A DNA stretch of 30,775 nt from a virus (Duplodnaviria > Heunggongvirae > Uroviricota > Caudoviricetes). Each line of letters opens with the position of its first letter. Position 1 is the stretch's first letter. The notes beneath the pieces are model-generated. The model was not told where the DNA came from. It did no database searches and saw only the letters and a program-made list of their open reading frames with translations. Below are positions 173 to 25,588 of this stretch, in pieces. The translations under genes were made by a program, and so were the position numbers. The stretch lies in IMG/VR virus record IMGVR_UViG_2877958089_000005; one strand, given 5' to 3'.

Positions 173-1222
173 TTATGCAACCTCTGCCGCCACATTGTCG
201 CCAACATACAGCGATAACGGATTGAGGGTTACAGCTTGTTCAAGGTGGTCAGGAGCAAAGTGCGCATACTTCATTGTTTCTCGAATATTGGCATGTCCGA
301 GAATTTTCTGCAGCACCAGTATATTCCCTCCGTTCATCATAAAATGCGCACCAAAAGTATGACGCAAAACGTGCGTCTTCTGCCCTTCCGTCAATTCAAT
401 ATTCGTTAGTTTGAGCATCTTTTTAAACTCCTGATAGCAGGGTTTAAACATTCTGCCTTGACGTACGGACAACTCGTCGTACAGCCATTTAGGAATAGGA
501 ACTGTGCGATTCTTCTTACCTTTGGTTTTGGTGAACGTTAGTTTATATGGAGAAAGTTGAGGTCGGGTCAATCTCTCCGCTTCCCCCCATCGAGCCCCGG
601 TTGCAAGGCACACCTTAACAATCATGGTGAGGTCTTCTTTGCCGTATTGCTCGCAGGCTCGAAACAGCTCCGGGAGCTGAGACAAAGTTAGCCAGGACAT
701 TTCTTTCTCAGCTTCTTTGAATACTCGGATCCCATCAAGTGGATTGGGTAGGCTCCACTCCCCTAACCGGCGGAGCTCATTAAACACTGCTTCTAGGTAT
801 TGTTGTTCGCGATTGACGGTTATAGGTTTGGCGATCCATTTCGAGGGGTCTTTATGATAACCATTGTCTATTTCACCACGTAATCGACGGTCACGATAAT
901 GAGCCCAGTCTTTCGCGGTAAGGCGAGATGCAATCGGGTCGCCAAGTCCATTACATACGATTTGAAGCTTTGCAAACCTCGACTTACTGGCGACTAACGC
1001 TTGACCGTGCAAATTGTGCCAAAGCTGAATAATCTCGCTTAAGCGTCGGCGGTCTTCTTTCTTGCCGAGCCACGGCTTATCTTCACTCTCGCTTTTGGTA
1101 AATGCTTCAAATGCCTCGGCCTCACCTTTGGTATTGAATTGCCGACGTATACGCCGCCCTTCTCGACCATTTGGATAGAGTTCACACAACCATTTTCCAC
1201 TTTTTTGTTTACTTACAGTCAT
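173..1222 (-). CDS. int: Tyrosine integrase (site-specific recombinase, phage integrase family)
   Basis: 349-aa ORF with ATG at 1220-1222; C-terminal catalytic region VLRHTFGAHF...GHANIRETMKYAHF has the His-x-x-Arg and Tyr nucleophile arrangement of tyrosine recombinases; sits at the prophage end next to the repressor. Confidence 0.9.
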   Translation of the reverse strand: MTVSKQKSGKWLCELYPNGREGRRIRRQFNTKGEAEAFEAFTKSESEDKPWLGKKEDRRRLSEIIQLWHNLHGQALVASKSRFAKLQIVCNGLGDPIASRLTAKDWAHYRDRRLRGEIDNGYHKDPSKWIAKPITVNREQQYLEAVFNELRRLGEWSLPNPLDGIRVFKEAEKEMSWLTLSQLPELFRACEQYGKEDLTMIVKVCLATGARWGEAERLTRPQLSPYKLTFTKTKGKKNRTVPIPKWLYDELSVRQGRMFKPCYQEFKKMLKLTNIELTEGQKTHVLRHTFGAHFMMNGGNILVLQKILGHANIRETMKYAHFAPDHLEQAVTLNPLSLYVGDNVAAEVA

Positions 1223-8328: not shown

Positions 8329-8532
8329 TGCGCGCCAGCGGTGGTGCGTATTATTAAAAATTATCGTCTGAGAACGTCGTGACGGCGCTGTAGTGGCCGG
8401 GTGTGATCGTGGGCGCGTGGTGCGTCTGTGGCGTGGTGCTAAAGGATGGGATCAGTTGCACAATTTTACGGTTTCGCTTTGGCTAATATCCATATTGAGA
8501 CTTTATGTTCCCCACAACAGTTGGAGGCTTTA

Positions 8533-8757
8533 ATGGATAACTATCATATTACAAAAGATGGCGATAAGTGGAAGTTGCAAAAAGAGGGCAATGACCGCCC
8601 TAGCAAGACCGCGACCACAAAGGCCGAGCTGATTAAAACAACATCTGAGTTTATGTCGAACAAAACAGGCTCGGTCAAAATTCACAAGGAAGATGGGAAA
8701 ATTCAGGAAGAACGCACTTATCAGAGAAAAGATGATCCTAAAAAGTCTAAAGGCTAA
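8533..8757 (+). CDS. DUF2188-like small protein (moron between cos and Q)
   Basis: ATG 8533 preceded by GGAGG; 74 aa MDNYHITKDGDKWKLQKEG...IHKEDGKIQEERTY..DDP..KG fits my recollection of the DUF2188 pattern. Confidence 0.55.
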   Translation: MDNYHITKDGDKWKLQKEGNDRPSKTATTKAELIKTTSEFMSNKTGSVKIHKEDGKIQEERTYQRKDDPKKSKG

Positions 8758-17573: not shown

Positions 17574-17602
17574 AGGCTGGATAAACACCAGCCTTGATTT
17601 TA
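17574..17602 (+). terminator. Hairpin terminator at the S/cargo junction
   Basis: aggctgg-ataaacac-cagcct stem-loop followed by tgatttta; lies between convergent S (+) and the HIT gene (-). Confidence 0.5.
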
Positions 17603-18244
17603 TAGTTTGAAATCTGCGTAATTATCAATAACCTCTAGAACACCGCTGATGTTGTTATCTCTGCGCCAATTCCAATTGCCATGTATCAAATTTGCATTAG
17701 AATAAAGATATCTAAGGAACTGAGATGGTAAGAGTGGTTTGTTGCATAAAAATTCATCATAACTATTACTCATATACCACACATATCCATTTTTAATGTC
17801 AAAACTTAAATTCTCACCTTCAATTTTCTTAAAGTTAATTTCTTTATTTAGAGCATTTTCAAACTCTTGCGTATAATAAACACAGTGTATATGAGCGTGA
17901 GAAATGCACCCTCCCGAACGATCTATATTTTCACCTGCTCCGCTTTCAAAGAAAATTAGAGATCTACCAGATTGGTGGATTATAAATTCATTAAGTTCTC
18001 GCAGAATCTCCTTGCCATTACTCCGGGTATCTCGATCAAGAGCAGCAAAGGAGTTGATATGCCGCTTAGGAATCAGCATCACATGCGAATTATTTAGCGG
18101 GCCAATACTAGGTACAATTAGAAAATCATTTGTTTCTGCAATGATATTTTTCTTGTCATTTACGATTTCATCGTATCCTTTGATAAGGCTAATGCCATTT
18201 ATTTCATCGCATATTCCACAGAACGAATTACAAGAATTATTCAC
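17600..18244 (-). CDS. HIT (histidine-triad) family nucleotide hydrolase/transferase-like protein with a C-terminal extension; cargo gene 2
   Basis: 214 aa. Histidine triad H116-A-H-I-H120-C-V (GGCISHAHIHCVYY); upstream Hint-like FLIVPSIGPLNNSHVMLIPKRHI and N-terminal NSFCGIC, comparable to E. coli HinT as I recall it (ETIFSKII / THILIIPN / VYHIHMHLLGG). GTG start at 18244 with SD CAGGAGA 8 nt upstream, inside the 3' end of the TM gene. Confidence 0.8.
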   Translation of the reverse strand: MNNSCNSFCGICDEINGISLIKGYDEIVNDKKNIIAETNDFLIVPSIGPLNNSHVMLIPKRHINSFAALDRDTRSNGKEILRELNEFIIHQSGRSLIFFESGAGENIDRSGGCISHAHIHCVYYTQEFENALNKEINFKKIEGENLSFDIKNGYVWYMSNSYDEFLCNKPLLPSQFLRYLYSNANLIHGNWNWRRDNNISGVLEVIDNYADFKL

Positions 18245-18803
18245 GTTTATTGTCTCCTGGTTTTTTAGGGAGCAATTTTTCAGCCCAAGATGCGAGTCGG
18301 CTTAGAACTAAGTCTGAAAAATATCCTAATATAAAACAAATCGAGAATGCAATTTTGGTCTTACCATGCCCTTTAATGGAGGATACAAACGTATCCGGAG
18401 ATAATAGCGTATAAGAACAAAAAGCCACTAAAGCAGCTAAGAACGGAATAAAAATCCTCCAGTAGAACTTATGGGATTCCCAAGGGAAATTATACTGATT
18501 GTTTTTCCCTCTAGCAGTTACTCTATAAAACCATTTTGCATTATACACCCACCCTCCAAAAAAACCGCCAAGAATAGAAAACAAAGATATTTTATTATTA
18601 TATGTCAGCTCAAAAACAAATTGAAAAAGAAAGGCGAGAATGCAACCTATTACAAAAAGAACTATTAAATAAGCAAATTCGAATTTTATTTGTTCACAAT
18701 CGTTATTAAAATAAGGCACAACCTCATCATCGCCTAAGGTTTTTTTTCTTTCAGTCATTTGCCAAACACCTTCATTTTTTACTGTGAGCCAGGGTAATTG
18801 CAT
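18237..18803 (-). CDS. Polytopic inner-membrane protein (about 4 TM helices); cargo gene 1
   Basis: Hydrophobic segments FAYLIVLFVIGCILAFLFQFVF, ISLFSILGGFFGGWVY, FYWRIFIPFLAALVAFCSYTLL, IAFSICFILGYFSDLVL; basic C-terminal tail. Track start 18809 is TTG; first ATG is 18801-18803. Stop overlaps the HIT gene start region. Confidence 0.7.
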   Translation of the reverse strand: MQLPWLTVKNEGVWQMTERKKTLGDDEVVPYFNNDCEQIKFEFAYLIVLFVIGCILAFLFQFVFELTYNNKISLFSILGGFFGGWVYNAKWFYRVTARGKNNQYNFPWESHKFYWRIFIPFLAALVAFCSYTLLSPDTFVSSIKGHGKTKIAFSICFILGYFSDLVLSRLASWAEKLLPKKPGDNKRE

Positions 18804-18934
18804 ATTCAACTTGGCTATTCTAATTAATTCTCACAAGATTTCATAGATGTTGAGTAGACCTCTCAGAAGTTGTTTCATTCCTCACAGAATCCATCTCGAT
18901 TGCCACTAATCTTGCCGGGCGTCATCCTTCCCAT

Positions 18935-20829: not shown

Positions 20830-21430
20830 CCGGCTATTACCCGTTGGCTCGTCGCCGCTGGAGGTCGCCGCCGCCGCTGCGTTCTCTGAGATTCAGCGCG
20901 TGCCGGTACCGCTGCGCACCCTGTGGAACTGGCGCACCTGCCCGGTAAAGCTGCTGCCGTATCTGGCGTGGGCGCTGTCGGTCGACAGGTGGGATGAGAA
21001 ATGGCCGGAGGCGACAAAGCGCAGCGTCTGCGCGTCCTCGTTTTTCGTCCATCAGCACAAAGGCACCATCAGCGCATTGCGTCGGGTCGTCGAGCCGCTC
21101 GGCTTTCTGATTGAGGTGCGCGAGTGGTGGCAACTCGACGAGGAGCCAGGCACATTCCGCCTCGTTGTTGGCGTCCTCGACAGCGGCATCACTGACGAAA
21201 TGTATCAGGAGCTTGAGCGCCTGATTGAAGACGCCAAACCGGCAAGTCGCCACCTGACCGGGCTGGCTATCAGTCTGAGCTCGACCGGCGAACTGTATGT
21301 CGGCGCGGGATGCTATCACGGCGACGCGCTGACTGTTTACCCCTACACCCCCGAGGAGATTGTCGTCGGCGGTGAATATTACCCGGCCTCGGCCATCCAT
21401 TTGATTGATAACCTGAGAGTAAACGCATGA
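20822..21430 (+). CDS. I: Baseplate/tail-fibre attachment protein I
   Basis: 202 aa; overlaps the J stop; P2 I position. Confidence 0.8.
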   Translation: MNDRLLPVGSSPLEVAAAAAFSEIQRVPVPLRTLWNWRTCPVKLLPYLAWALSVDRWDEKWPEATKRSVCASSFFVHQHKGTISALRRVVEPLGFLIEVREWWQLDEEPGTFRLVVGVLDSGITDEMYQELERLIEDAKPASRHLTGLAISLSSTGELYVGAGCYHGDALTVYPYTPEEIVVGGEYYPASAIHLIDNLRVNA

Positions 21431-22491
21431 CCGCAAAATATTTTGCCATTCTGACCAATCAGGGCGCGGCGCGGCTGGCGAACGCGGCGGCACTCGGTAC
21501 CAAACTCAACCTGACGCAGATGGCCGTCGGTGATGCGAATGGTTCGTTGCCGACCCCTGAGCCGGCGCAGACGAAGCTCATTAACCAGAAACGCATCGCG
21601 CCGCTGAACCTGCTGACCGTTGACCCGGCCAATACCAGTCAGATTATCGCGGAACAGATTATTCCCGAGAATGAAGGTGGTTTCTGGATCCGCGAGATTG
21701 GTCTCTATGACGATGATGGTATTCTGATTGCCGTGGCGAACTGTCCGGAGACCTACAAGCCACAACTGCAGGAGGGAAGCGGTCGCACGCAGACCATTCG
21801 CATGATTCTGATTGTGTCGAGCACATCGGCAATCACCCTGAAAATCGACCCGGCAGTCGTGCTGGCAACGCGCCAGTATGTCGACGACAAGGTTATCGAG
21901 GTGAAAGGATATGCTGATGACCTGATGAAAAAACATGTTGAGGCCGCCAATCCACACAAGCAGTACCCGTTAATCGCTAATGCTCTGAAAGAAATGGTTG
22001 ACGCGGGACTGGTCGGCGACGTTCTTAAAAACCTTGGTTTGGGAGAAGGTGCTCCAGCTATTGGCGTTCCGTTCTTCTGGCCGTCCGCTGCAATGCCAAA
22101 TACTGTAATCGATAGCTGGTCCAGTATGGTGTTTTTGAAGTTCAACGGGGCGAAATTTTCTGCCTCTGATTACCCTGTGCTGGCAAAAGTGTTTCCTTCG
22201 CTGGTATTACCTGAAGCCCGCGGTGATTTCATTCGTATCTGGGATGATGGGCGAGGGGCGGACAGTGGGCGAGCATTATTAAGCTGGCAGGCAGCAACAG
22301 CTTTATCGCAATTTGGCGGTAATTATCCAGAAGGGTCCGGCCATGCGATTGCTGATTACGATGGAATATCAGCACACCAACCAGGTTTCTCTCGATTTCA
22401 GTACACCAGTAACTCAGTAGGAGATGGTGTTAATTTTATTGCCGTCAGACCACGTAACATTGCATTTAACTTTCTGGTGAGGGCTAAATAA
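21427..22491 (+). CDS. H: Tail fibre protein H: constant N-terminal part fused to the currently expressed variable C-terminal part (Sv)
   Basis: 354 aa; N-terminus MTAKYFAILTNQGAARLANAAALGTKLNLT is the conserved P2 H start; a hix-like crossover site lies inside the gene at 22022-22047, so residues after about 207 belong to the invertible segment. Confidence 0.85.
   Translation: MTAKYFAILTNQGAARLANAAALGTKLNLTQMAVGDANGSLPTPEPAQTKLINQKRIAPLNLLTVDPANTSQIIAEQIIPENEGGFWIREIGLYDDDGILIAVANCPETYKPQLQEGSGRTQTIRMILIVSSTSAITLKIDPAVVLATRQYVDDKVIEVKGYADDLMKKHVEAANPHKQYPLIANALKEMVDAGLVGDVLKNLGLGEGAPAIGVPFFWPSAAMPNTVIDSWSSMVFLKFNGAKFSASDYPVLAKVFPSLVLPEARGDFIRIWDDGRGADSGRALLSWQAATALSQFGGNYPEGSGHAIADYDGISAHQPGFSRFQYTSNSVGDGVNFIAVRPRNIAFNFLVRAK
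22022..22047 (+). repeat. hix/gix-like inversion crossover site (left inverted repeat), inside H
   Basis: ttcttaaaaaccttggtttgggagaa resembles the Hin hixL site as I recall it (TTCTTGAAAACCAAGGTTTTTGATAA); the 14-bp core TTGGTTTGGGAGAA recurs inverted at 23985-24010. Confidence 0.7.
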
Positions 22492-23084
22492 TGAAACCTG
22501 TTTTTGATGAAAATGGACTGGCTACAGTGCCGGGTGATATGCGTTGTTTTTATTATGATGCAGTAACGTATGAATATACGGGCTGGTCTGATGAATATAT
22601 TAATACTGGTGTAAGTATGCCCGCCTGTTCCACTGGTATTGACCCGGGCGAAAACATTCCGGGAAAAGTGGCAGTATTTACAGGTAAGGGATGGAGCCAT
22701 GAAGAAGACCATCGCAATGAGACTGTTTACTCAATCGAAAATGGTGCTGCTGTTACAGTGGATTATATCGGTGCCATCAAAAACGGTTATGTCACGCTTT
22801 CACCGTTAACGCCATATGATAAATGGGATGGTGAGAAATGGGTGACAGATACTGAGGCACAACACGGTGCCGCAGTAGAAGCGGCAGAAGCACAGCGCCA
22901 GTCACTGATTGATGCAGCAATGGCTTCCATCAGTCTGATTCAGCTGAAATTACAGGCCGGGCGGAAGCTGACGCAGGCAGAAACCACCCGGCTTAACGCC
23001 GTGCTTGATTACATTGACGCGGTGACGGCAACAGATACGAGCACCGCGCCGGATGTCATCTGGCCTGAACTGCCGGAGGCGTAG
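22491..23084 (+). CDS. G: Tail fibre assembly chaperone (P2 gpG / Mu U type), expressed orientation
   Basis: 197 aa; start overlaps the H stop; C-terminus ...PDVIWPELPEA parallels the C-terminus of the inverted copy (...PDIEWPTPPAVQAR). Confidence 0.8.
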   Translation: MKPVFDENGLATVPGDMRCFYYDAVTYEYTGWSDEYINTGVSMPACSTGIDPGENIPGKVAVFTGKGWSHEEDHRNETVYSIENGAAVTVDYIGAIKNGYVTLSPLTPYDKWDGEKWVTDTEAQHGAAVEAAEAQRQSLIDAAMASISLIQLKLQAGRKLTQAETTRLNAVLDYIDAVTATDTSTAPDVIWPELPEA

Positions 23085-23637
23085 GCCATTCAATATCTGG
23101 CGCACCGGAAGTATCGACCAGTTCCAGTGCGTCCAGATAATCCAGCCACAAATTATATTGCGCCAGTTCCTCACCTTTCAGGCGACCAATCGCCGCTTTA
23201 CCAGGCCATTGCTTACTGTTTATGTATTCGNNNNNNNNNNNNNNNNNNNNNNNNNNNNNNNNNNNNNNNNNNNNNNNNNNNNNNNNNNNNNNNNNNNNNN
23301 NNNNNNNNNNNNNNNNNNNNNNNNNNNNNNTCGCCGCTTTACCAGGCCATTGCTTACTGTTTATGTATTCGTTGACCTGATTAATCAATTGCTGCTTTTC
23401 CAGTTCGGCTGCGGCAATTTGTTCCTCATGAGTTGGCGGTGGAATATCAATCCATGCTGGCATTCCGTCGATGACACCTCTGTACTTTCCTTCTGGTGCT
23501 TCCTTCATAAATTCAGCGGCAGCAGTGTCGTCAATTTCGATTCCATCATCAGGCCATTTCCCCGCTTCCTGATAAGCAATTTTAAGCTCCACAGGGAAAA
23601 ACGCATTTTTATCAGCACTGAAAATATATTTCTGCAT
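23056..23637 (-). CDS. Alternative tail fibre assembly chaperone (U'-type), silent orientation; interrupted by a 100-N assembly gap
   Basis: 193 aa including X residues from the N-run; coordinates and length are only approximate because of the gap. Confidence 0.6.
   Translation of the reverse strand: MQKYIFSADKNAFFPVELKIAYQEAGKWPDDGIEIDDTAAAEFMKEAPEGKYRGVIDGMPAWIDIPPPTHEEQIAAAELEKQQLINQVNEYINSKQWPGKAAXXXXXXXXXXXXXXXXXXXXXXXXXXXXXXXXXXEYINSKQWPGKAAIGRLKGEELAQYNLWLDYLDALELVDTSGAPDIEWPTPPAVQAR
23231..23330. other. Assembly gap (100 N) flanked by an exact 41-bp duplication
   Basis: tcgccgctttaccaggccattgcttactgtttatgtattcg occurs at 23190-23230 and again at 23331-23371, either side of the N-run; consistent with overlapping contig ends scaffolded with a spacer. 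Confidence 0.9.
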
Positions 23638-23639
23638 TT

Positions 23640-23993
23640 CTACCGTCCTATCGAAATATAACTGAATCTGTATTGTTGAGAGATATCACTGATTGCCACG
23701 CGCCACGCTGAATTACTGATATGTTCAAAATTTACAGATAAAACCAGCGGTGCAGGATTCGACGGTTCTGACTGAACGGCATCAGACATGACACTGACTG
23801 AAACAAGCGGTTGATTAGGGAATGGTATAGGGAAGTGTCCACTGATAATGCGGGTCGTGTTCCCTGAAAAAGTGCCAAACTGAACAATATATCCACCTGG
23901 TAGCCTGAACCATCCCGAGCCAGAAGCGAATGCTCCCATATCCGGTATCTGATTTTCCCCTGTCCCCACATTCCTTCTTGCCGCTTCTCCCAA
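23640..23993 (-). CDS. Alternative tail fibre C-terminal segment (Sv'), promoterless in this orientation
   Basis: Reading the minus strand through the right hix-like site gives LGEAARRNVGTGENQ..., sharing the junction LGEGA/LGEAA with H; it would be fused in frame to the H constant region after inversion. Confidence 0.65.
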   Translation of the reverse strand: MGEAARRNVGTGENQIPDMGAFASGSGWFRLPGGYIVQFGTFSGNTTRIISGHFPIPFPNQPLVSVSVMSDAVQSEPSNPAPLVLSVNFEHISNSAWRVAISDISQQYRFSYISIGR

Positions 23994-24010
23994 ACCAACC
24001 TTTTAGAAAA
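23985..24010 (-). repeat. hix/gix-like inversion crossover site (right inverted repeat)
   Basis: ttctcccaaaccaaccttttagaaaa; its reverse complement ttttctaaaaggttggtttgggagaa shares TTGGTTTGGGAGAA with the left site. Confidence 0.7.
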
Positions 24011-24064
24011 TGCAGATATTCCGTTCAGCTGGCATGTTCCCGACTTTTTACCGGGTTATTTCTC

Positions 24065-24311
24065 ATGTTTATCGGTTATGTACGTGTATCAACAAATGAC
24101 CAGAACACCGCATTACAGCGAAATGAACTGGAGTGCGCAGGATGTGAGCTGATTTTCGAAGATAAAATCAGCGGCAAAACATCAATCAGACTGGCCGGGG
24201 CTAAAGAGGTTACTCAGAACCTTGTCAGAGGGCGATACGCTTGTGGTCTGGAAACTGGATCGCCTCGGGTATCTCAACGCTATACAAACAATTTCCCGCA
24301 TCCGTTGCTGA
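24065..24311 (+). pseudogene. Remnant of a Hin/Gin/Pin-family serine DNA invertase (frameshifted and C-terminally deleted)
   Basis: ATG 24065: MFIGYVRVSTNDQNTALQRNELECAGCELIFEDKISGK... resembles the Hin N-terminus, including the catalytic Ser in YVRVSTNDQ; the conserved GDTLVVWKLDRLG is encoded one frame over from about 24231, implying a 1-nt insertion; similarity ends near 24270 and FI begins at 24410, so over half the gene, including the DNA-binding domain, is missing. Confidence 0.7.
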
Positions 24312-24321
24312 TGTCTCAATG

Positions 24322-24346
24322 TGTCAGACATCGCCCAACACTGACA
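24322..24346 (+). promoter_or_regulatory. Dyad-symmetric element upstream of FI (candidate late-activator site or remnant of the invertase 3' region)
   Basis: tgtcag-N13-ctgaca perfect 6-bp inverted repeat about 65-90 bp upstream of the FI start; spacing does not match the P2 TGT-N12-ACA consensus. Confidence 0.25.
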
Positions 24347-24409
24347 AATAGCCCCTCAACAGACCAGCCAGGACAATAACACTTGCCCACTAACCACGGA
24401 GTTAACCGG

Positions 24410-25588
24410 ATGAGTGATTTTCACCACGGCGTGCAGGTGCTTGAGATTAACGACGGCACCCGCGTCATTTCCACTGTTGCAACCGCAATCGTCGGCATGG
24501 TCTGTACAGCCAGCGATGCGGATGCGGCAACCTTTCCCCTCAACGAGCCGGTACTGATTACCAATGTGCAAAGCGCCATTGCGAAAGCCGGTAAAAAAGG
24601 CACGCTGGCCGCGTCCCTGCAGGCCATCGCCGACCAGTCAAAACCTGTCACAGTTGTCGTGCGTGTTGCCGAAGGTACCGGAGAAGACGCCGAAGCGCAG
24701 ACCATTTCCAATATCATCGGCGGCACGGATGAGAACGGTAAATATACCGGCATCAAGGCGCTGTTGACTGCCGAAGCAGTCACCGGCGTTAAGCCGCGCA
24801 TTCTCGGCGTGCCGGGTCTCGATACCAAAGAGGTCGCAGTCGCACTTGCTTCGGTCTGTATCAGCCTGCGCGCCTTTGGCTATATCAGCGCATGGGGTTG
24901 TAAAACCATTTCCGAGGCGATGGCCTATCGCGAGAATTTCAGTCAGCGCGAGCTGATGGTCATCTGGCCTGATTTCCTTGCATGGGATACCACCACAAAC
25001 GCCACCGCACCGGCATACGCAACTGCGCGCGCACTCGGCCTGCGTGCCTATATCGACCAGACCGTCGGCTGGCACAAAACCCTGTCTAACGTCGGCGTGC
25101 AGGGTGTTACCGGCATCAGTGCGTCAGTGTTTTGGGATTTGCAGGCATCCGGCACCGATGCTGATCTGCTCAACGAGGCCGGGGTCACGACACTGGTGCG
25201 TAAGGATGGCTTCCGCTTTTGGGGTAACCGCACCTGCTCTGATGACCCGCTTTTCCTGTTTGAGAACTACACCCGCACCGCGCAGGTGCTGGCCGACACG
25301 ATGGCCGAGGCGCACATGTGGGCGGTCGATAAGCCCATCACCGCATCACTTATCCGTGACATTGTCGACGGCATTAACGCCAAATTCCGCGAGCTGAAAT
25401 CAAACGGCTACATCGTGGACGGTGAATGCTGGTTCGACGAGGAATCGAACGATAAGGAAACCCTCAAGGCCGGGAAACTGTATATCGACTACGACTATAC
25501 ACCGGTTCCACCACTGGAAAGCCTAACCCTGCGCCAGCGTATCACCGATAAATATCTGGTGAATCTGGCCGAATCGGTCAACAGCTAA
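24410..25588 (+). CDS. FI: Tail sheath protein FI
   Basis: Track ORF starts at 24383; ATG 24410 preceded by GGAG gives MSDFHHGVQVLEINDGTRVISTVATAIVGMVCTASDADAATFPLNEPVLITNVQSAIAKAGKKG..., closely resembling the P2 FI N-terminus; 392 aa. Confidence 0.9.
   Translation: MSDFHHGVQVLEINDGTRVISTVATAIVGMVCTASDADAATFPLNEPVLITNVQSAIAKAGKKGTLAASLQAIADQSKPVTVVVRVAEGTGEDAEAQTISNIIGGTDENGKYTGIKALLTAEAVTGVKPRILGVPGLDTKEVAVALASVCISLRAFGYISAWGCKTISEAMAYRENFSQRELMVIWPDFLAWDTTTNATAPAYATARALGLRAYIDQTVGWHKTLSNVGVQGVTGISASVFWDLQASGTDADLLNEAGVTTLVRKDGFRFWGNRTCSDDPLFLFENYTRTAQVLADTMAEAHMWAVDKPITASLIRDIVDGINAKFRELKSNGYIVDGECWFDEESNDKETLKAGKLYIDYDYTPVPPLESLTLRQRITDKYLVNLAESVNS

What the first reader, a model, noticed from the sequence alone, without database searches (positions are those of the whole stretch)
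24065..24311. The cognate serine invertase next to the invertible segment is a frameshifted, truncated remnant
Only about 70 aa of Hin-like sequence remain: the N-terminus with the catalytic serine is intact, the conserved DTLVVWKLDRLG block is displaced into another frame by an apparent 1-nt insertion near 24230, and the rest of the gene (HTH domain and the internal recombinational enhancer) is absent before FI begins. The tail-fibre switch is therefore locked unless a host or co-resident invertase (Pin/Hin/Gin-like) acts in trans on the retained hix-like sites.
Basis: partly seen in the sequence, partly recalled or inferred. Interest (0 to 1): 0.5.

Follow-up and report, generated by a model that had tools for sequence, protein, structure and literature searches.

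The report
Dead invertase beside a still-flipping switch
The DNA-flipping enzyme gene next to this prophage's tail-fibre switch is a decayed pseudogene, but the switch is not locked: near-identical prophages carry it in both orientations, so another invertase in the cell most likely flips it.

Summary
The window is a P2-like prophage. At 24065-24351 lies a PinE/Gin-type serine invertase pseudogene, which RefSeq already annotates as frameshifted.

The details were wrong:
- The frameshift is a 4-bp tandem duplication (ATCA|ATCA, 24181-24188), not a 1-nt insertion near 24230.
- The main lesion is a ~311-bp internal deletion (junction ~24267-24270).
- The last ~27 codons and the native stop are retained. 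They overlap the late promoter region of the tail-sheath operon.
- The enhancer-equivalent DNA lies in the retained 5' part, so it is not lost.

The remnant recurs in 35 complete E. coli genomes and one phage record, so it is not a sequencing error.

The two crossover sites match the e14 P-segment sites. Three independent pairs of near-identical prophages, including clonal hospital isolates, carry the same segment in opposite orientations. So the switch still flips, most likely through resident PinE- or PinQ/R-type invertases acting in trans. 33 of 35 carrier chromosomes hold another invertase-like locus.

This is an ordinary kind of system: an orphaned member of the Mu G / e14 P class.

The parts
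21427..22491 (+). Tail-fibre gene H as currently assembled (354 aa). The constant part runs to ~22034; the variable receptor-binding end (22035-22491) lies inside the invertible segment.
   Evidence: ORF list. Pfam Phage_tail_fib N-terminal domain, E=5.5e-63. Flipping the segment in silico gives a 321-aa H, the same length as the H annotated in AST217.
22022..22047 (+). Left 26-bp crossover site, TTCTTAAAAACC-TT-GGTTTGGGAGAA, inside gene H. Core dinucleotide TT at 22034-22035.
   Evidence: Inverted repeat I3. Sequence. The 16-mer TTGGTTTGGGAGAAGG is an exact match to the published e14 P-segment site, with 0 matches expected by chance (PMC12529663). The inversion breakpoint relative to AST217 starts at 22034.
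22035..23997 (.). Invertible tail-fibre segment. True length is 1822 bp once the 100-N gap and the 41-bp duplicated flank are removed.
   Evidence: 100% identical but inverted in AST217. Equivalent segments are inverted between CH423 and CH425 and between EC15 and EC12.
22491..23084 (+). Expressed tail-fibre assembly gene (197 aa).
   Evidence: Pfam Caudo_TAP, E=1.8e-27.
23056..23637 (-). Silent alternative tail-fibre assembly gene, interrupted in the window by an artificial gap. True length is 441 bp (146 aa).
   Evidence: ORF list. AST217 annotates the intact 441-bp gene. The gap flanks overlap by 41 bp.
23231..23330 (.). 100-N scaffolding gap, with the same 41 bp repeated on both sides (23190-23230 = 23331-23371). 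No sequence is missing.
23640..23993 (-). Silent alternative C-terminal cassette of H (117 aa, gp53-like C-terminal domain).
   Evidence: Pfam Gp53-like_C, E=2.1e-09. It is joined to the constant part of H in the flipped state.
23985..24010 (+). Right 26-bp crossover site, TTCTCCCAAACC-AA-CCTTTTAGAAAA. Core AA at 23997-23998, 68 bp upstream of the invertase ATG.
   Evidence: The 68-bp spacing is the same in e14 pinE, and Mu gin has 67 bp. The site is identical in 13 of 14 related loci.
24065..24269 (+). 5' part of the invertase pseudogene: codons 1 to ~68, with the catalytic Ser9 motif. It is split over two frames by the duplication.
   Evidence: PGAP annotates the identical sequence as 'recombinase family protein; frameshifted'.
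24086..24150. Enhancer-equivalent DNA (inferred Fis sites). The blocks 24089-24105 and 24137-24147 are invariant with Mu gin and with the intact and full-length P2-like relatives aligned.
   Evidence: Alignment. Block centres lie ~100 and ~145 bp from the crossover core. In Hin the distance from hixL to the proximal Fis site is ~100 bp and the Fis-site centres are 47 bp apart (PMC3798978). Function is inferred, not tested.
24181..24188 (+). 4-bp tandem duplication, ATCA|ATCA, which shifts the frame by +1. It is specific to this allele.
   Evidence: Absent from the EC15/EC12 allele. The CH allele also lacks it and has instead lost one G from the GGGG run.
24192..24194 (+). TGG (Trp) codon replacing the conserved Arg of the D-R-P-G-L motif.
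   Evidence: The frame-repaired translation reads DWPGLK, against DRPGLK in L003, L004, L005 and PinE.
24267..24270 (+). Junction of the ~311-bp internal deletion, which removes codons ~69-172: the rest of the catalytic domain, helix E and most of the HTH. The junction shows GG microhomology and is itself frameshifting.
   Evidence: Pairwise alignment to L003 and L004. The junction is shared by all 14 loci examined and by 35 genomes.
24270..24351 (+). 3' tail of the invertase gene: the end of the recognition helix, the C-terminal tail and the native TAG stop.
   Evidence: (second domain hit to Gin residues 169-186).
24312..24342 (+). Late-promoter (P_F) activator-binding-site equivalent, overlapping the 3' tail of the dead gene. 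TGT-N12-CCAAC lies at 24322-24341. The transcription start is predicted at about 24381-24385.
   Evidence: The P2 record annotates the site 69-97 bp upstream of the FI ATG, and the start ~25 bp upstream. Alignment. Other P2-like prophages begin to match at window 24334. Function is inferred.
24410..25588 (+). Tail sheath gene FI, the first gene of the late F operon.
   Evidence: PGAP annotation of the identical sequence.

Best explanation
This is an orphaned invertible tail-fibre switch in a P2-like prophage.

How the gene died (shown by sequence comparison):
- Its own PinE/Gin-type serine invertase gene was first inactivated by a ~311-bp internal deletion. The deletion removed the end of the catalytic domain, helix E and most of the DNA-binding domain.
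- The gene then decayed further: an Arg-to-Trp change in the DRPGL motif, and a 4-bp duplication in this lineage. A sister lineage has a different 1-bp deletion instead.

What survives (sites shown; function inferred):
- Both 26-bp crossover sites.
- The enhancer-like DNA inside the first ~90 bp of the dead gene.
- The late promoter region, which overlaps the gene's last codons.

How it works now:
- Shown: the segment still inverts, exactly at the core dinucleotides. This swaps which C-terminal fibre cassette and assembly gene are joined to the constant part of H, giving a 354-aa or a 321-aa fibre.
- Inferred: the catalyst is another small serine invertase in the same cell (PinE-type or PinQ/PinR-type, from another prophage), acting in trans with host Fis.
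For: Anatomy of the lesions.

Recurrence and annotation as a pseudogene.

Order of events: three alleles share the deletion junction but differ in their small indels.

Sites:
- An inverted pair with complementary core dinucleotides, 0 expected by chance.
- They match the e14 P-segment sites 16/16 and 15/16. PMC12529663 reports that PinE, PinQ and PinR all invert that segment.
- The 68-bp site-to-ATG spacing is the same as in e14, and Mu has 67 bp.

Inversion after the gene died:
- Window vs AST217: 30.7 kb at 99.96-100% identity, with only the segment inverted; breakpoints fall within the shared repeats, with in-silico flipping at the core dinucleotides reproducing AST217's H.
- CH423/CH458 vs CH425: clonal hospital isolates with 100% identical flanks.
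- EC15 vs EC12.
- This gives one pair in each of the three pseudogene alleles.

Candidate enzymes:
- The CH clones have +1 PinE-type and +2 PinQ/R-type loci.
- 33 of 35 carrier chromosomes have at least one other invertase-like locus.

Cross-action of such invertases is established: PMC12529663, and titles in its reference list (van de Putte 1984, Kutsukake 2006).
Against: - No experiment or read-level data were available. Orientation is taken from consensus assemblies.
- The trans-acting enzyme is not identified. The extra loci were only counted as similarity 'places'; I did not verify that they are intact genes, and plasmids were not examined.
- The AST217 and MG48 chromosomes show no other invertase-like locus. 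AST217's orientation must therefore have been set in an earlier host, by a plasmid or phage-borne enzyme, or the flip happened in the window's lineage.
- Enhancer and promoter functions are inferred from conservation that also reflects coding constraint.
Confidence: 0.8

Rival explanations
1. The switch is locked. With its invertase dead, the segment is frozen in one orientation, and the orientation differences between genomes predate the inactivation.
For: The cognate gene is clearly non-functional. AST217 and MG48 have no other invertase-like locus on their chromosomes. Eight related genomes (the strain 222 group) and phage 613R3 all share one orientation.
Against: All carriers share one deletion junction, which indicates a single origin. 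Yet each of the three later alleles contains both orientations of an otherwise identical segment. That includes clonal isolates with 100% identical flanks. The orientation polymorphism therefore arose after the gene died. The strain 222 group is probably clonal, and each member has a PinQ-type locus.
Confidence: 0.1
2. The frameshift and truncation are sequencing or assembly errors, and the real gene is intact.
For: The window comes from a scaffolded draft with a 100-N gap about 0.7 kb upstream.
Against: The same deletion junction occurs in 35 independently assembled complete genomes and one phage record. Fourteen genomes are 100% identical across the 216-nt N-terminal query, which includes the 4-bp duplication. 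PGAP marks the locus as a pseudogene in every record examined. The gap lies in a different gene and hides nothing.
Confidence: 0.01
3. Inversion occurs by general (RecA-dependent) homologous recombination between the inverted repeats, with no site-specific invertase involved.
For: The prophage encodes no functional invertase, and AST217 shows none on its chromosome.
Against: The shared inverted identity is only 15-21 bp, which is very short for efficient RecA recombination (established knowledge). The breakpoint intervals contain the core dinucleotide of canonical hix/gix/pix-type sites. The sites and their spacing are invariant even though the cassette content is highly mosaic, which suggests selection on the sites. 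The same sites are proven invertase substrates in e14 (PMC12529663).
Confidence: 0.06
4. The remnant still yields an active or regulatory protein, for example by ribosomal frameshifting or as a truncated N-terminal fragment.
For: An ORF of 104 codons from ATG 24065 remains open. One phage record labels it 'DNA invertase'.
Against: Helix E and almost all of the DNA-binding domain are deleted, so no amount of frameshifting can restore a recombinase. Sister alleles carry different frame-breaking indels, and one has a stop after 44 codons. That is the pattern of neutral decay, not of a conserved product.
Confidence: 0.02

Closest known systems
e14 P segment and PinE (E. coli K-12 cryptic prophage e14)
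   Same: - Matching crossover sequences (TTGGTTTGGGAGAAGG / its complement: 16/16 and 15/16).
- The same 68-bp spacing from site core to invertase ATG.
- The same layout: a constant fibre 5' part, two opposed fibre-end plus assembly-gene cassettes, then the invertase.
- The remnant's N-terminus is PinE-like.
- The e14 segment is also inverted in trans by invertases from other prophages, PinQ and PinR (PMC12529663).
   Different: Here the adjacent invertase is a deletion/frameshift pseudogene, and the element is an apparently complete P2-like prophage rather than a lambdoid remnant. In e14, PinE is intact in K-12.
Phage Mu G segment / Gin and phage P1 C segment / Cin
   Same: A Fis/enhancer-dependent serine-invertase switch that exchanges tail-fibre C-termini and assembly proteins. 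Mu has 67 bp from the segment boundary to the gin ATG. The 5' coding DNA that should hold the enhancer contains blocks invariant with Mu gin. The repaired N-terminus matches Gin structures at E~3e-29.
   Different: The site sequences differ in detail, the segment is shorter (1.8 kb against about 3 and 4.2 kb), and there is no functional cognate enzyme.
P2-like prophages with an intact invertase between the fibre cassettes and FI (e.g. Salmonella phage MET_P1_103_31 hin, E. coli O157:H43 T22 P2-like phage, phage pro483)
   Same: The same gene order and the same 15-mer site pair, with the invertase stop codon lying in the region that aligns with P2's annotated P_F region. These represent the ancestral state.
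   Different: MET_P1_103_31 encodes a full 197-aa enzyme and the T22 phage has an annotated 164-aa invertase ORF (pro483's gene was not examined). The window lacks codons ~69-172.
Invertases acting on sites of another element: PinQ/PinR on e14, and Salmonella flagellar phase variation served by two DNA invertases (Kutsukake 2006, title only)
   Same: An invertase encoded elsewhere operates a switch it is not adjacent to. That is the mechanism proposed here.
   Different: In those cases the local invertase is also functional, so the trans enzyme is redundant. Here the switch would depend entirely on trans-acting enzymes.

Membership tests
Small serine DNA invertase gene (Hin/Gin/Cin/Pin; Pfam Resolvase PF00239 plus C-terminal HTH) | N-terminal catalytic motif with the nucleophilic serine (Y-x-R-V-S-T-x-x-Q) | tested here: met
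   MFIGYVRVSTNDQ from ATG 24065. Pfam PF00239 at E=1.2e-08 (raw ORF) and 2.7e-19 (repaired). Gin structures at E~3e-29.
Small serine DNA invertase gene (Hin/Gin/Cin/Pin; Pfam Resolvase PF00239 plus C-terminal HTH) | Complete catalytic domain and oligomerisation helix E (about 135 residues) | tested here: not met
   The Pfam match covers only profile positions 2-78 of 145. A ~311-bp deletion removes codons ~69-172.
Small serine DNA invertase gene (Hin/Gin/Cin/Pin; Pfam Resolvase PF00239 plus C-terminal HTH) | C-terminal helix-turn-helix DNA-binding domain | tested here: not met
   Only GISTLYKQFPAS and the tail remain, aligning to Gin residues ~169-186 and to the last 26 residues of L004.
Small serine DNA invertase gene (Hin/Gin/Cin/Pin; Pfam Resolvase PF00239 plus C-terminal HTH) | A single uninterrupted reading frame of about 185-200 codons | tested here: not met
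   The three pieces lie in three frames. PGAP labels the locus frameshifted or incomplete.
Small serine DNA invertase gene (Hin/Gin/Cin/Pin; Pfam Resolvase PF00239 plus C-terminal HTH) | Conserved Arg in the D-R-P-G-L motif | tested here: not met
   Trp (TGG, 24192-24194) in all three alleles, against Arg in L003, L004, L005 and PinE.
Invertase-operated tail-fibre switch (Mu G / P1 C / e14 P type) | Two ~26-bp crossover sites in inverted orientation with matching core dinucleotides | tested here: met
   22022-47 (core TT) and 23985-24010 (core AA). The pair matches the e14 sites, with 0 expected by chance.
Invertase-operated tail-fibre switch (Mu G / P1 C / e14 P type) | Constant 5' fibre part outside the segment; alternative 3' fibre ends with their assembly genes inside it, in opposed orientation | tested here: met
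   ORFs and domains. Both orientations give open fibre genes of 354 and 321 aa.
Invertase-operated tail-fibre switch (Mu G / P1 C / e14 P type) | Both orientations occur among otherwise identical copies | tested here: met
   Three pairs.
Invertase-operated tail-fibre switch (Mu G / P1 C / e14 P type) | Fis-dependent recombinational enhancer in cis, ~100 bp from one site | tested here: inconclusive
   The position and sequence blocks are conserved with Mu gin, and the geometry matches Hin (PMC3798978). However, the same bases encode conserved residues, and Fis binding cannot be tested here.
Invertase-operated tail-fibre switch (Mu G / P1 C / e14 P type) | A functional invertase encoded next to the segment | tested here: not met
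   It is a pseudogene. The prophage has no other serine recombinase.
P2 late promoter P_F (Ogr-type activator dependent) | Activator-binding site and transcription start at the P2 positions relative to the FI start | tested here: inconclusive
   The P2 annotation transposed by alignment gives TGT-N12-CCAAC at 24322-24341, with conserved downstream spacing. Activity is not testable. The sigma-70 consensus scan finds nothing, which is compatible with an activator-dependent promoter but is not evidence for one.

The most novel reading that the evidence does not exclude
The dead invertase gene persists in this particular shape because it serves as a scaffold for two cis-acting DNA elements: the recombinational enhancer in its first ~90 bp and the late-operon promoter in its last codons. 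On this reading the phage lineage has outsourced tail-fibre switching to invertases resident in its hosts. Host-range switching would then depend on which other prophages the host carries, and would lock in hosts that have none.
Probability: 0.35. Interest if true: 0.45.

Novelty: new member of a known kind. Interest (0 to 1): 0.3.

Why it matters
An annotated 'pseudogene invertase' does not mean that the neighbouring phase-variable locus is frozen. The cis sites can outlive the enzyme and be operated by invertases from other prophages in the same cell.

For this prophage lineage, found in at least 35 sequenced E. coli genomes including clinical isolates, the expressed tail-fibre type would then depend on the host's other mobile elements. 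That matters for:
- predicting phage host range;
- interpreting structural differences between otherwise clonal genomes;
- annotation, since one phage record calls the remnant a DNA invertase.

It adds an example to a well-known mechanism. It does not reveal a new one.

Tried and rejected
- **MAFFT multiple alignment:** it misplaced the 3' piece, so I replaced it with pairwise alignment.
- **First all-vs-all script:** it timed out and was rewritten.
- **Blind fetch in CH423:** I fetched 50 kb next to the CH423 prophage hoping to find a second invertase. It only showed that the prophage sits at the same attachment site next to yfiB. I therefore counted extra invertase loci indirectly with chimeric queries. 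This gives counts, not coordinates, and merges an invertase that lies next to another FI gene into that place.
- **Papers not held:** Johnson's 2015 review and Kutsukake 2006. The statement that the enhancer lies inside the 5' end of invertase genes therefore rests on the ~100-bp distance quoted in PMC3798978 and PMC4513852, on the measured 67-68-bp site-to-ATG spacing, and on my own knowledge.
- **Sigma-70 promoter and terminator scan of 23900-24450:** it found nothing and is uninformative for an activator-dependent late promoter.
- **P2 vestige idea:** I considered whether P2 itself keeps a vestige of the invertase's KFPAS codons upstream of P_F. The short similarity there coincides with what looks like the terminator stem-loop after gene G, so I make no such claim.
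- **Strain 222 group:** I considered using the uniform orientation of this group as evidence for locking in invertase-poor hosts. I rejected it because these genomes are probably clonal and each has a PinQ-type locus.

Full report
**Context.** The window is almost a complete P2-like (Peduoviridae) prophage. It runs from the integrase (173-1222, minus strand) through head, lysis, baseplate and tail genes to gene D. It is 99.96-100% identical to a prophage that lies between yfiB and rplS in E. coli AST217, whose RefSeq annotation supplies gene names. The finding concerns the short stretch between the tail-fibre region and the tail-sheath gene FI (ATG at 24410).

**Checking the observation.** An ORF starts at ATG 24065 with MFIGYVRVSTNDQNTALQRNELECAGCELIFEDKISGKTS.
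- The raw ORF hits Pfam Resolvase at E=1.2e-08. With the frames joined, the hit is E=2.7e-19, but it covers only profile positions 2-78 of 145.
- The joined sequence matches the Gin invertase structures 4m6f and 3uj3 at E~3e-29 over residues 1-70. A weak second match places GISTLYKQFPAS at Gin residues ~169-186.

**What the lesions really are.** I aligned the DNA to full-length relatives occupying the same position in other P2-like elements. These were Salmonella phage MET_P1_103_31 hin (197 aa), the P2-like phage of E. coli O157:H43 T22, and E. coli 30EVA2.
- The frame shifts because of a 4-bp tandem duplication, ATCA|ATCA, at 24181-24188. There is no gap anywhere in 24200-24269, so the proposed 1-nt insertion near 24230 does not exist, and that stretch is not homopolymeric.
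- About 311 bp are missing after ...GATCGCCTCGG(G), at 24267-24270, with GG microhomology at the junction. This removes codons ~69-172: the end of the catalytic domain, helix E and most of the helix-turn-helix domain. The deletion shifts the frame by itself.
- The last ~27 codons and the native stop survive in a third frame: GISTLYKQFPASVADVSMCQTSPNTDK*, with TAG at 24349-24351. They align to STLYKKFPASVTKNKLCHPLANRDK* of the intact enzyme.
- The conserved Arg of the D-R-P-G-L motif is Trp (24192-24194).

**Not an artefact, and already annotated.** Exactly 35 complete E. coli genomes contain the deletion junction with its downstream sequence. Fourteen are 100% identical across the 216-nt N-terminal query. 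A phage record (vB_EcoM-613R3) has the junction too and labels the 104-codon ORF 'DNA invertase'. PGAP calls the locus 'recombinase family protein; frameshifted' or 'incomplete' in every genome I opened. In AST217 the annotated pseudogene corresponds exactly to window 24065-24311, the coordinates of the finding.

**Order of events.** Three alleles share the deletion junction and the Arg-to-Trp change but differ in their small indels.

| Allele | ATG-to-junction length | Small indel | Examples |
|---|---|---|---|
| a | 205 nt | ATCA duplication | window, AST217, VG888, strain 222 |
| b | 201 nt | neither indel | EC15, EC12 |
| c | 200 nt | no duplication; one G lost from GGGG, giving a stop after DWPG | CH423, CH425, CH458 |

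The deletion was therefore the primary inactivating event.

**Cis elements: crossover sites.**
- An inverted repeat pairs 22028-22048 with 23984-24004.
- Read as 26-bp sites, these are TTCTTAAAAACC-TT-GGTTTGGGAGAA (22022-22047, inside fibre gene H) and TTCTCCCAAACC-AA-CCTTTTAGAAAA (23985-24010).
- The inner half-sites match the published e14 P-segment inversion sites, TTGGTTTGGGAGAAGG and CCTTCTCCCAAACCAA. The window has exactly two matches, inverted, with none expected by chance (PMC12529663).
- The core-to-ATG distance is 68 bp, as in e14 pinE. Mu gin has 67 bp.
- The sites and this spacing are essentially invariant in 14 related loci, although cassette content is highly mosaic.

**Cis elements: enhancer.** The Hin enhancer lies ~100 bp from hixL, and its two Fis sites have centres 47 bp apart (PMC3798978; PMC4513852). 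At those distances the window has blocks that are invariant with Mu gin and the aligned P2-like relatives: 24089-24105 and 24137-24147. Both lie upstream of the duplication. This is an inference, because the same bases encode conserved residues.

**Cis elements: late promoter.** The retained 3' tail also has a plausible reason to persist. The P2 record annotates the P_F activator-binding site 69-97 bp upstream of FI, and the transcription start ~25 bp upstream. Aligned to the window, this places the site at ~24312-24342 (TGT-N12-CCAAC at 24322-24341), with the downstream spacing conserved. Other P2-like prophages begin to match at 24334. A deletion extending further to the right would probably remove the promoter of the tail-sheath operon.

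**Is the switch locked?** No, at least not across the lineage.
- In AST217 the window's cassette DNA (22055-23225) is 100% identical but lies on the opposite strand, abutting the right-hand site. Over the whole 30.7 kb the two prophages differ by a handful of SNPs and by inversion of the 1822-bp segment. The alignment breakpoints lie within the shared repeat at each site, an interval that contains the core dinucleotide. The only 'mismatches' are the differing outer half-sites.
- Flipping the segment in silico yields a 321-aa H, exactly the length annotated in AST217. The window's own H is 354 aa.
- Three clonal hospital isolates from Islamabad (genome sizes 4,740,891-4,740,904 bp) have 100% identical flanks. 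The 1873-bp segment lies one way in CH423 and CH458 and the other way in CH425.
- EC15 and EC12, from one study, form a third pair.
- Each pair belongs to a different pseudogene allele, so inversion has happened repeatedly since the gene died.

**Which enzyme does it?** The prophage has no other serine recombinase. To count invertase loci elsewhere in carrier genomes, I compared 'places per record' for three queries, together with the N-terminal count:
- a single-copy anchor alone (24262-25400);
- the anchor plus the central part of pinE;
- the anchor plus the central part of pinQ.

Results:
- The CH clones gain one PinE-type and two PinQ/R-type places.
- 33 of 35 carrier chromosomes have at least one additional invertase-like locus.
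- AST217 and MG48 have none on the chromosome (plasmids not examined).

PinE, PinQ and PinR are reported to invert the e14 segment, which bears matching sites (PMC12529663). Complementation of Mu gin by e14, and a second invertase serving Salmonella phase variation, are cited in the reference lists I saw (van de Putte 1984; Kutsukake 2006). Inversions in P2-like prophages of E. coli cultures have been observed directly (PMC4272514). Trans action is therefore the best-supported mechanism, but the enzyme is not identified, and I did not check that the counted loci are intact genes.

**Rivals.**
- *Sequencing error* is excluded by recurrence.
- *Pre-existing polymorphism with a locked switch* is contradicted by both orientations occurring within each derived allele and within clonal isolates.
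- *RecA-mediated inversion* is unlikely with only 15-21 bp of shared identity and breakpoint intervals that contain the core dinucleotide of canonical sites, but it is not formally excluded.
- *A functional product from the remnant* is implausible, given the deleted domains and the differing frame-breaking indels.

**Comparison and novelty.** The locus works like the e14 P, Mu G and P1 C switches, and it derives from a PinE-type invertase gene. As a gene it fails four of the five membership features I tested for the invertase family, so it is a pseudogene. As a switch it meets the cis-element and bidirectionality criteria but lacks its own enzyme. I found no description of this particular orphaned state, but every component and the trans-action principle are known, and the pseudogene is already annotated. 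I rate it a new member of a known kind, of modest interest.

**Caveats.**
- Orientations come from consensus assemblies.
- The window itself is a scaffold with an artificial gap inside the segment, although each contig spans one junction consistently.
- Enhancer and promoter roles are inferred.
- Locus counts are similarity counts only.

Noticed in passing
window 23231-23330 (with 23190-23230 = 23331-23371): The 100-N run is a scaffolding artefact. The same 41 bp flank it on both sides, and the complete AST217 sequence shows the two contig ends overlap. No sequence is missing, and the silent assembly gene is really 441 bp.
   Followed up: yes
window 24312-24351: The last codons and the stop of the invertase gene overlap the region that aligns to P2's annotated P_F activator-binding site. 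P2 has no invertase, yet it shares the GACAAATAG that supplies the invertase stop codon in its relatives.
   Followed up: partly
window 8446-8757 (+): A 103-aa DUF2188-type ORF in the variable region beside the portal gene matches the PADLOC candidate defence family PDC-S16 (E=1.3e-14).
   Followed up: partly
window 17600-18809 (-): Two opposite-strand cargo genes are inserted among the tail and baseplate genes: a 214-aa HIT-domain protein (Pfam HIT/DcpS_C/CwfJ_C_1, E~1e-4 to 1e-6) and a 190-aa ORF with no Pfam or PADLOC hit. This looks like a moron of unknown role.
   Followed up: partly
L001, L002, L006, L008-L011, L013-L018 (segment between the crossover sites): Prophages that share the same dead invertase and the same sites carry many different fibre-end and assembly-gene cassette combinations. 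Most pairwise matches cover only 10-55% of the segment, and segment lengths range from 1542 to 1869 bp. The cassettes appear to be exchanged frequently by recombination.
   Followed up: partly
L003 3503-4056; L020 2502-2903: Other invertases of this type are also decaying. The full-length P2-like invertase in E. coli 30EVA2 has a 1-nt deletion (GGAAACTGG to GG-AACTGG), and the e14 pinE of strain HKUOPY1 is annotated as frameshifted and incomplete.
   Followed up: no
L006 3630-3944 (ON470592.1, phage vB_EcoM-613R3): A deposited phage record annotates the 104-codon frameshifted remnant ORF as 'DNA invertase', which looks like a misannotation. The record also suggests that this invertase-less lineage may still produce phage particles.
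   Followed up: no
L008 1-1422 and 31958-34001; L012 1-4794: The prophage sits at one attachment site, between yfiB and rplS, in AST217 and next to yfiB in CH423. The ~1.14-1.25 Mb positions seen in many of the other carrier records may reflect a different start coordinate, as shown for CH423, but their attachment sites were not checked.
   Followed up: partly
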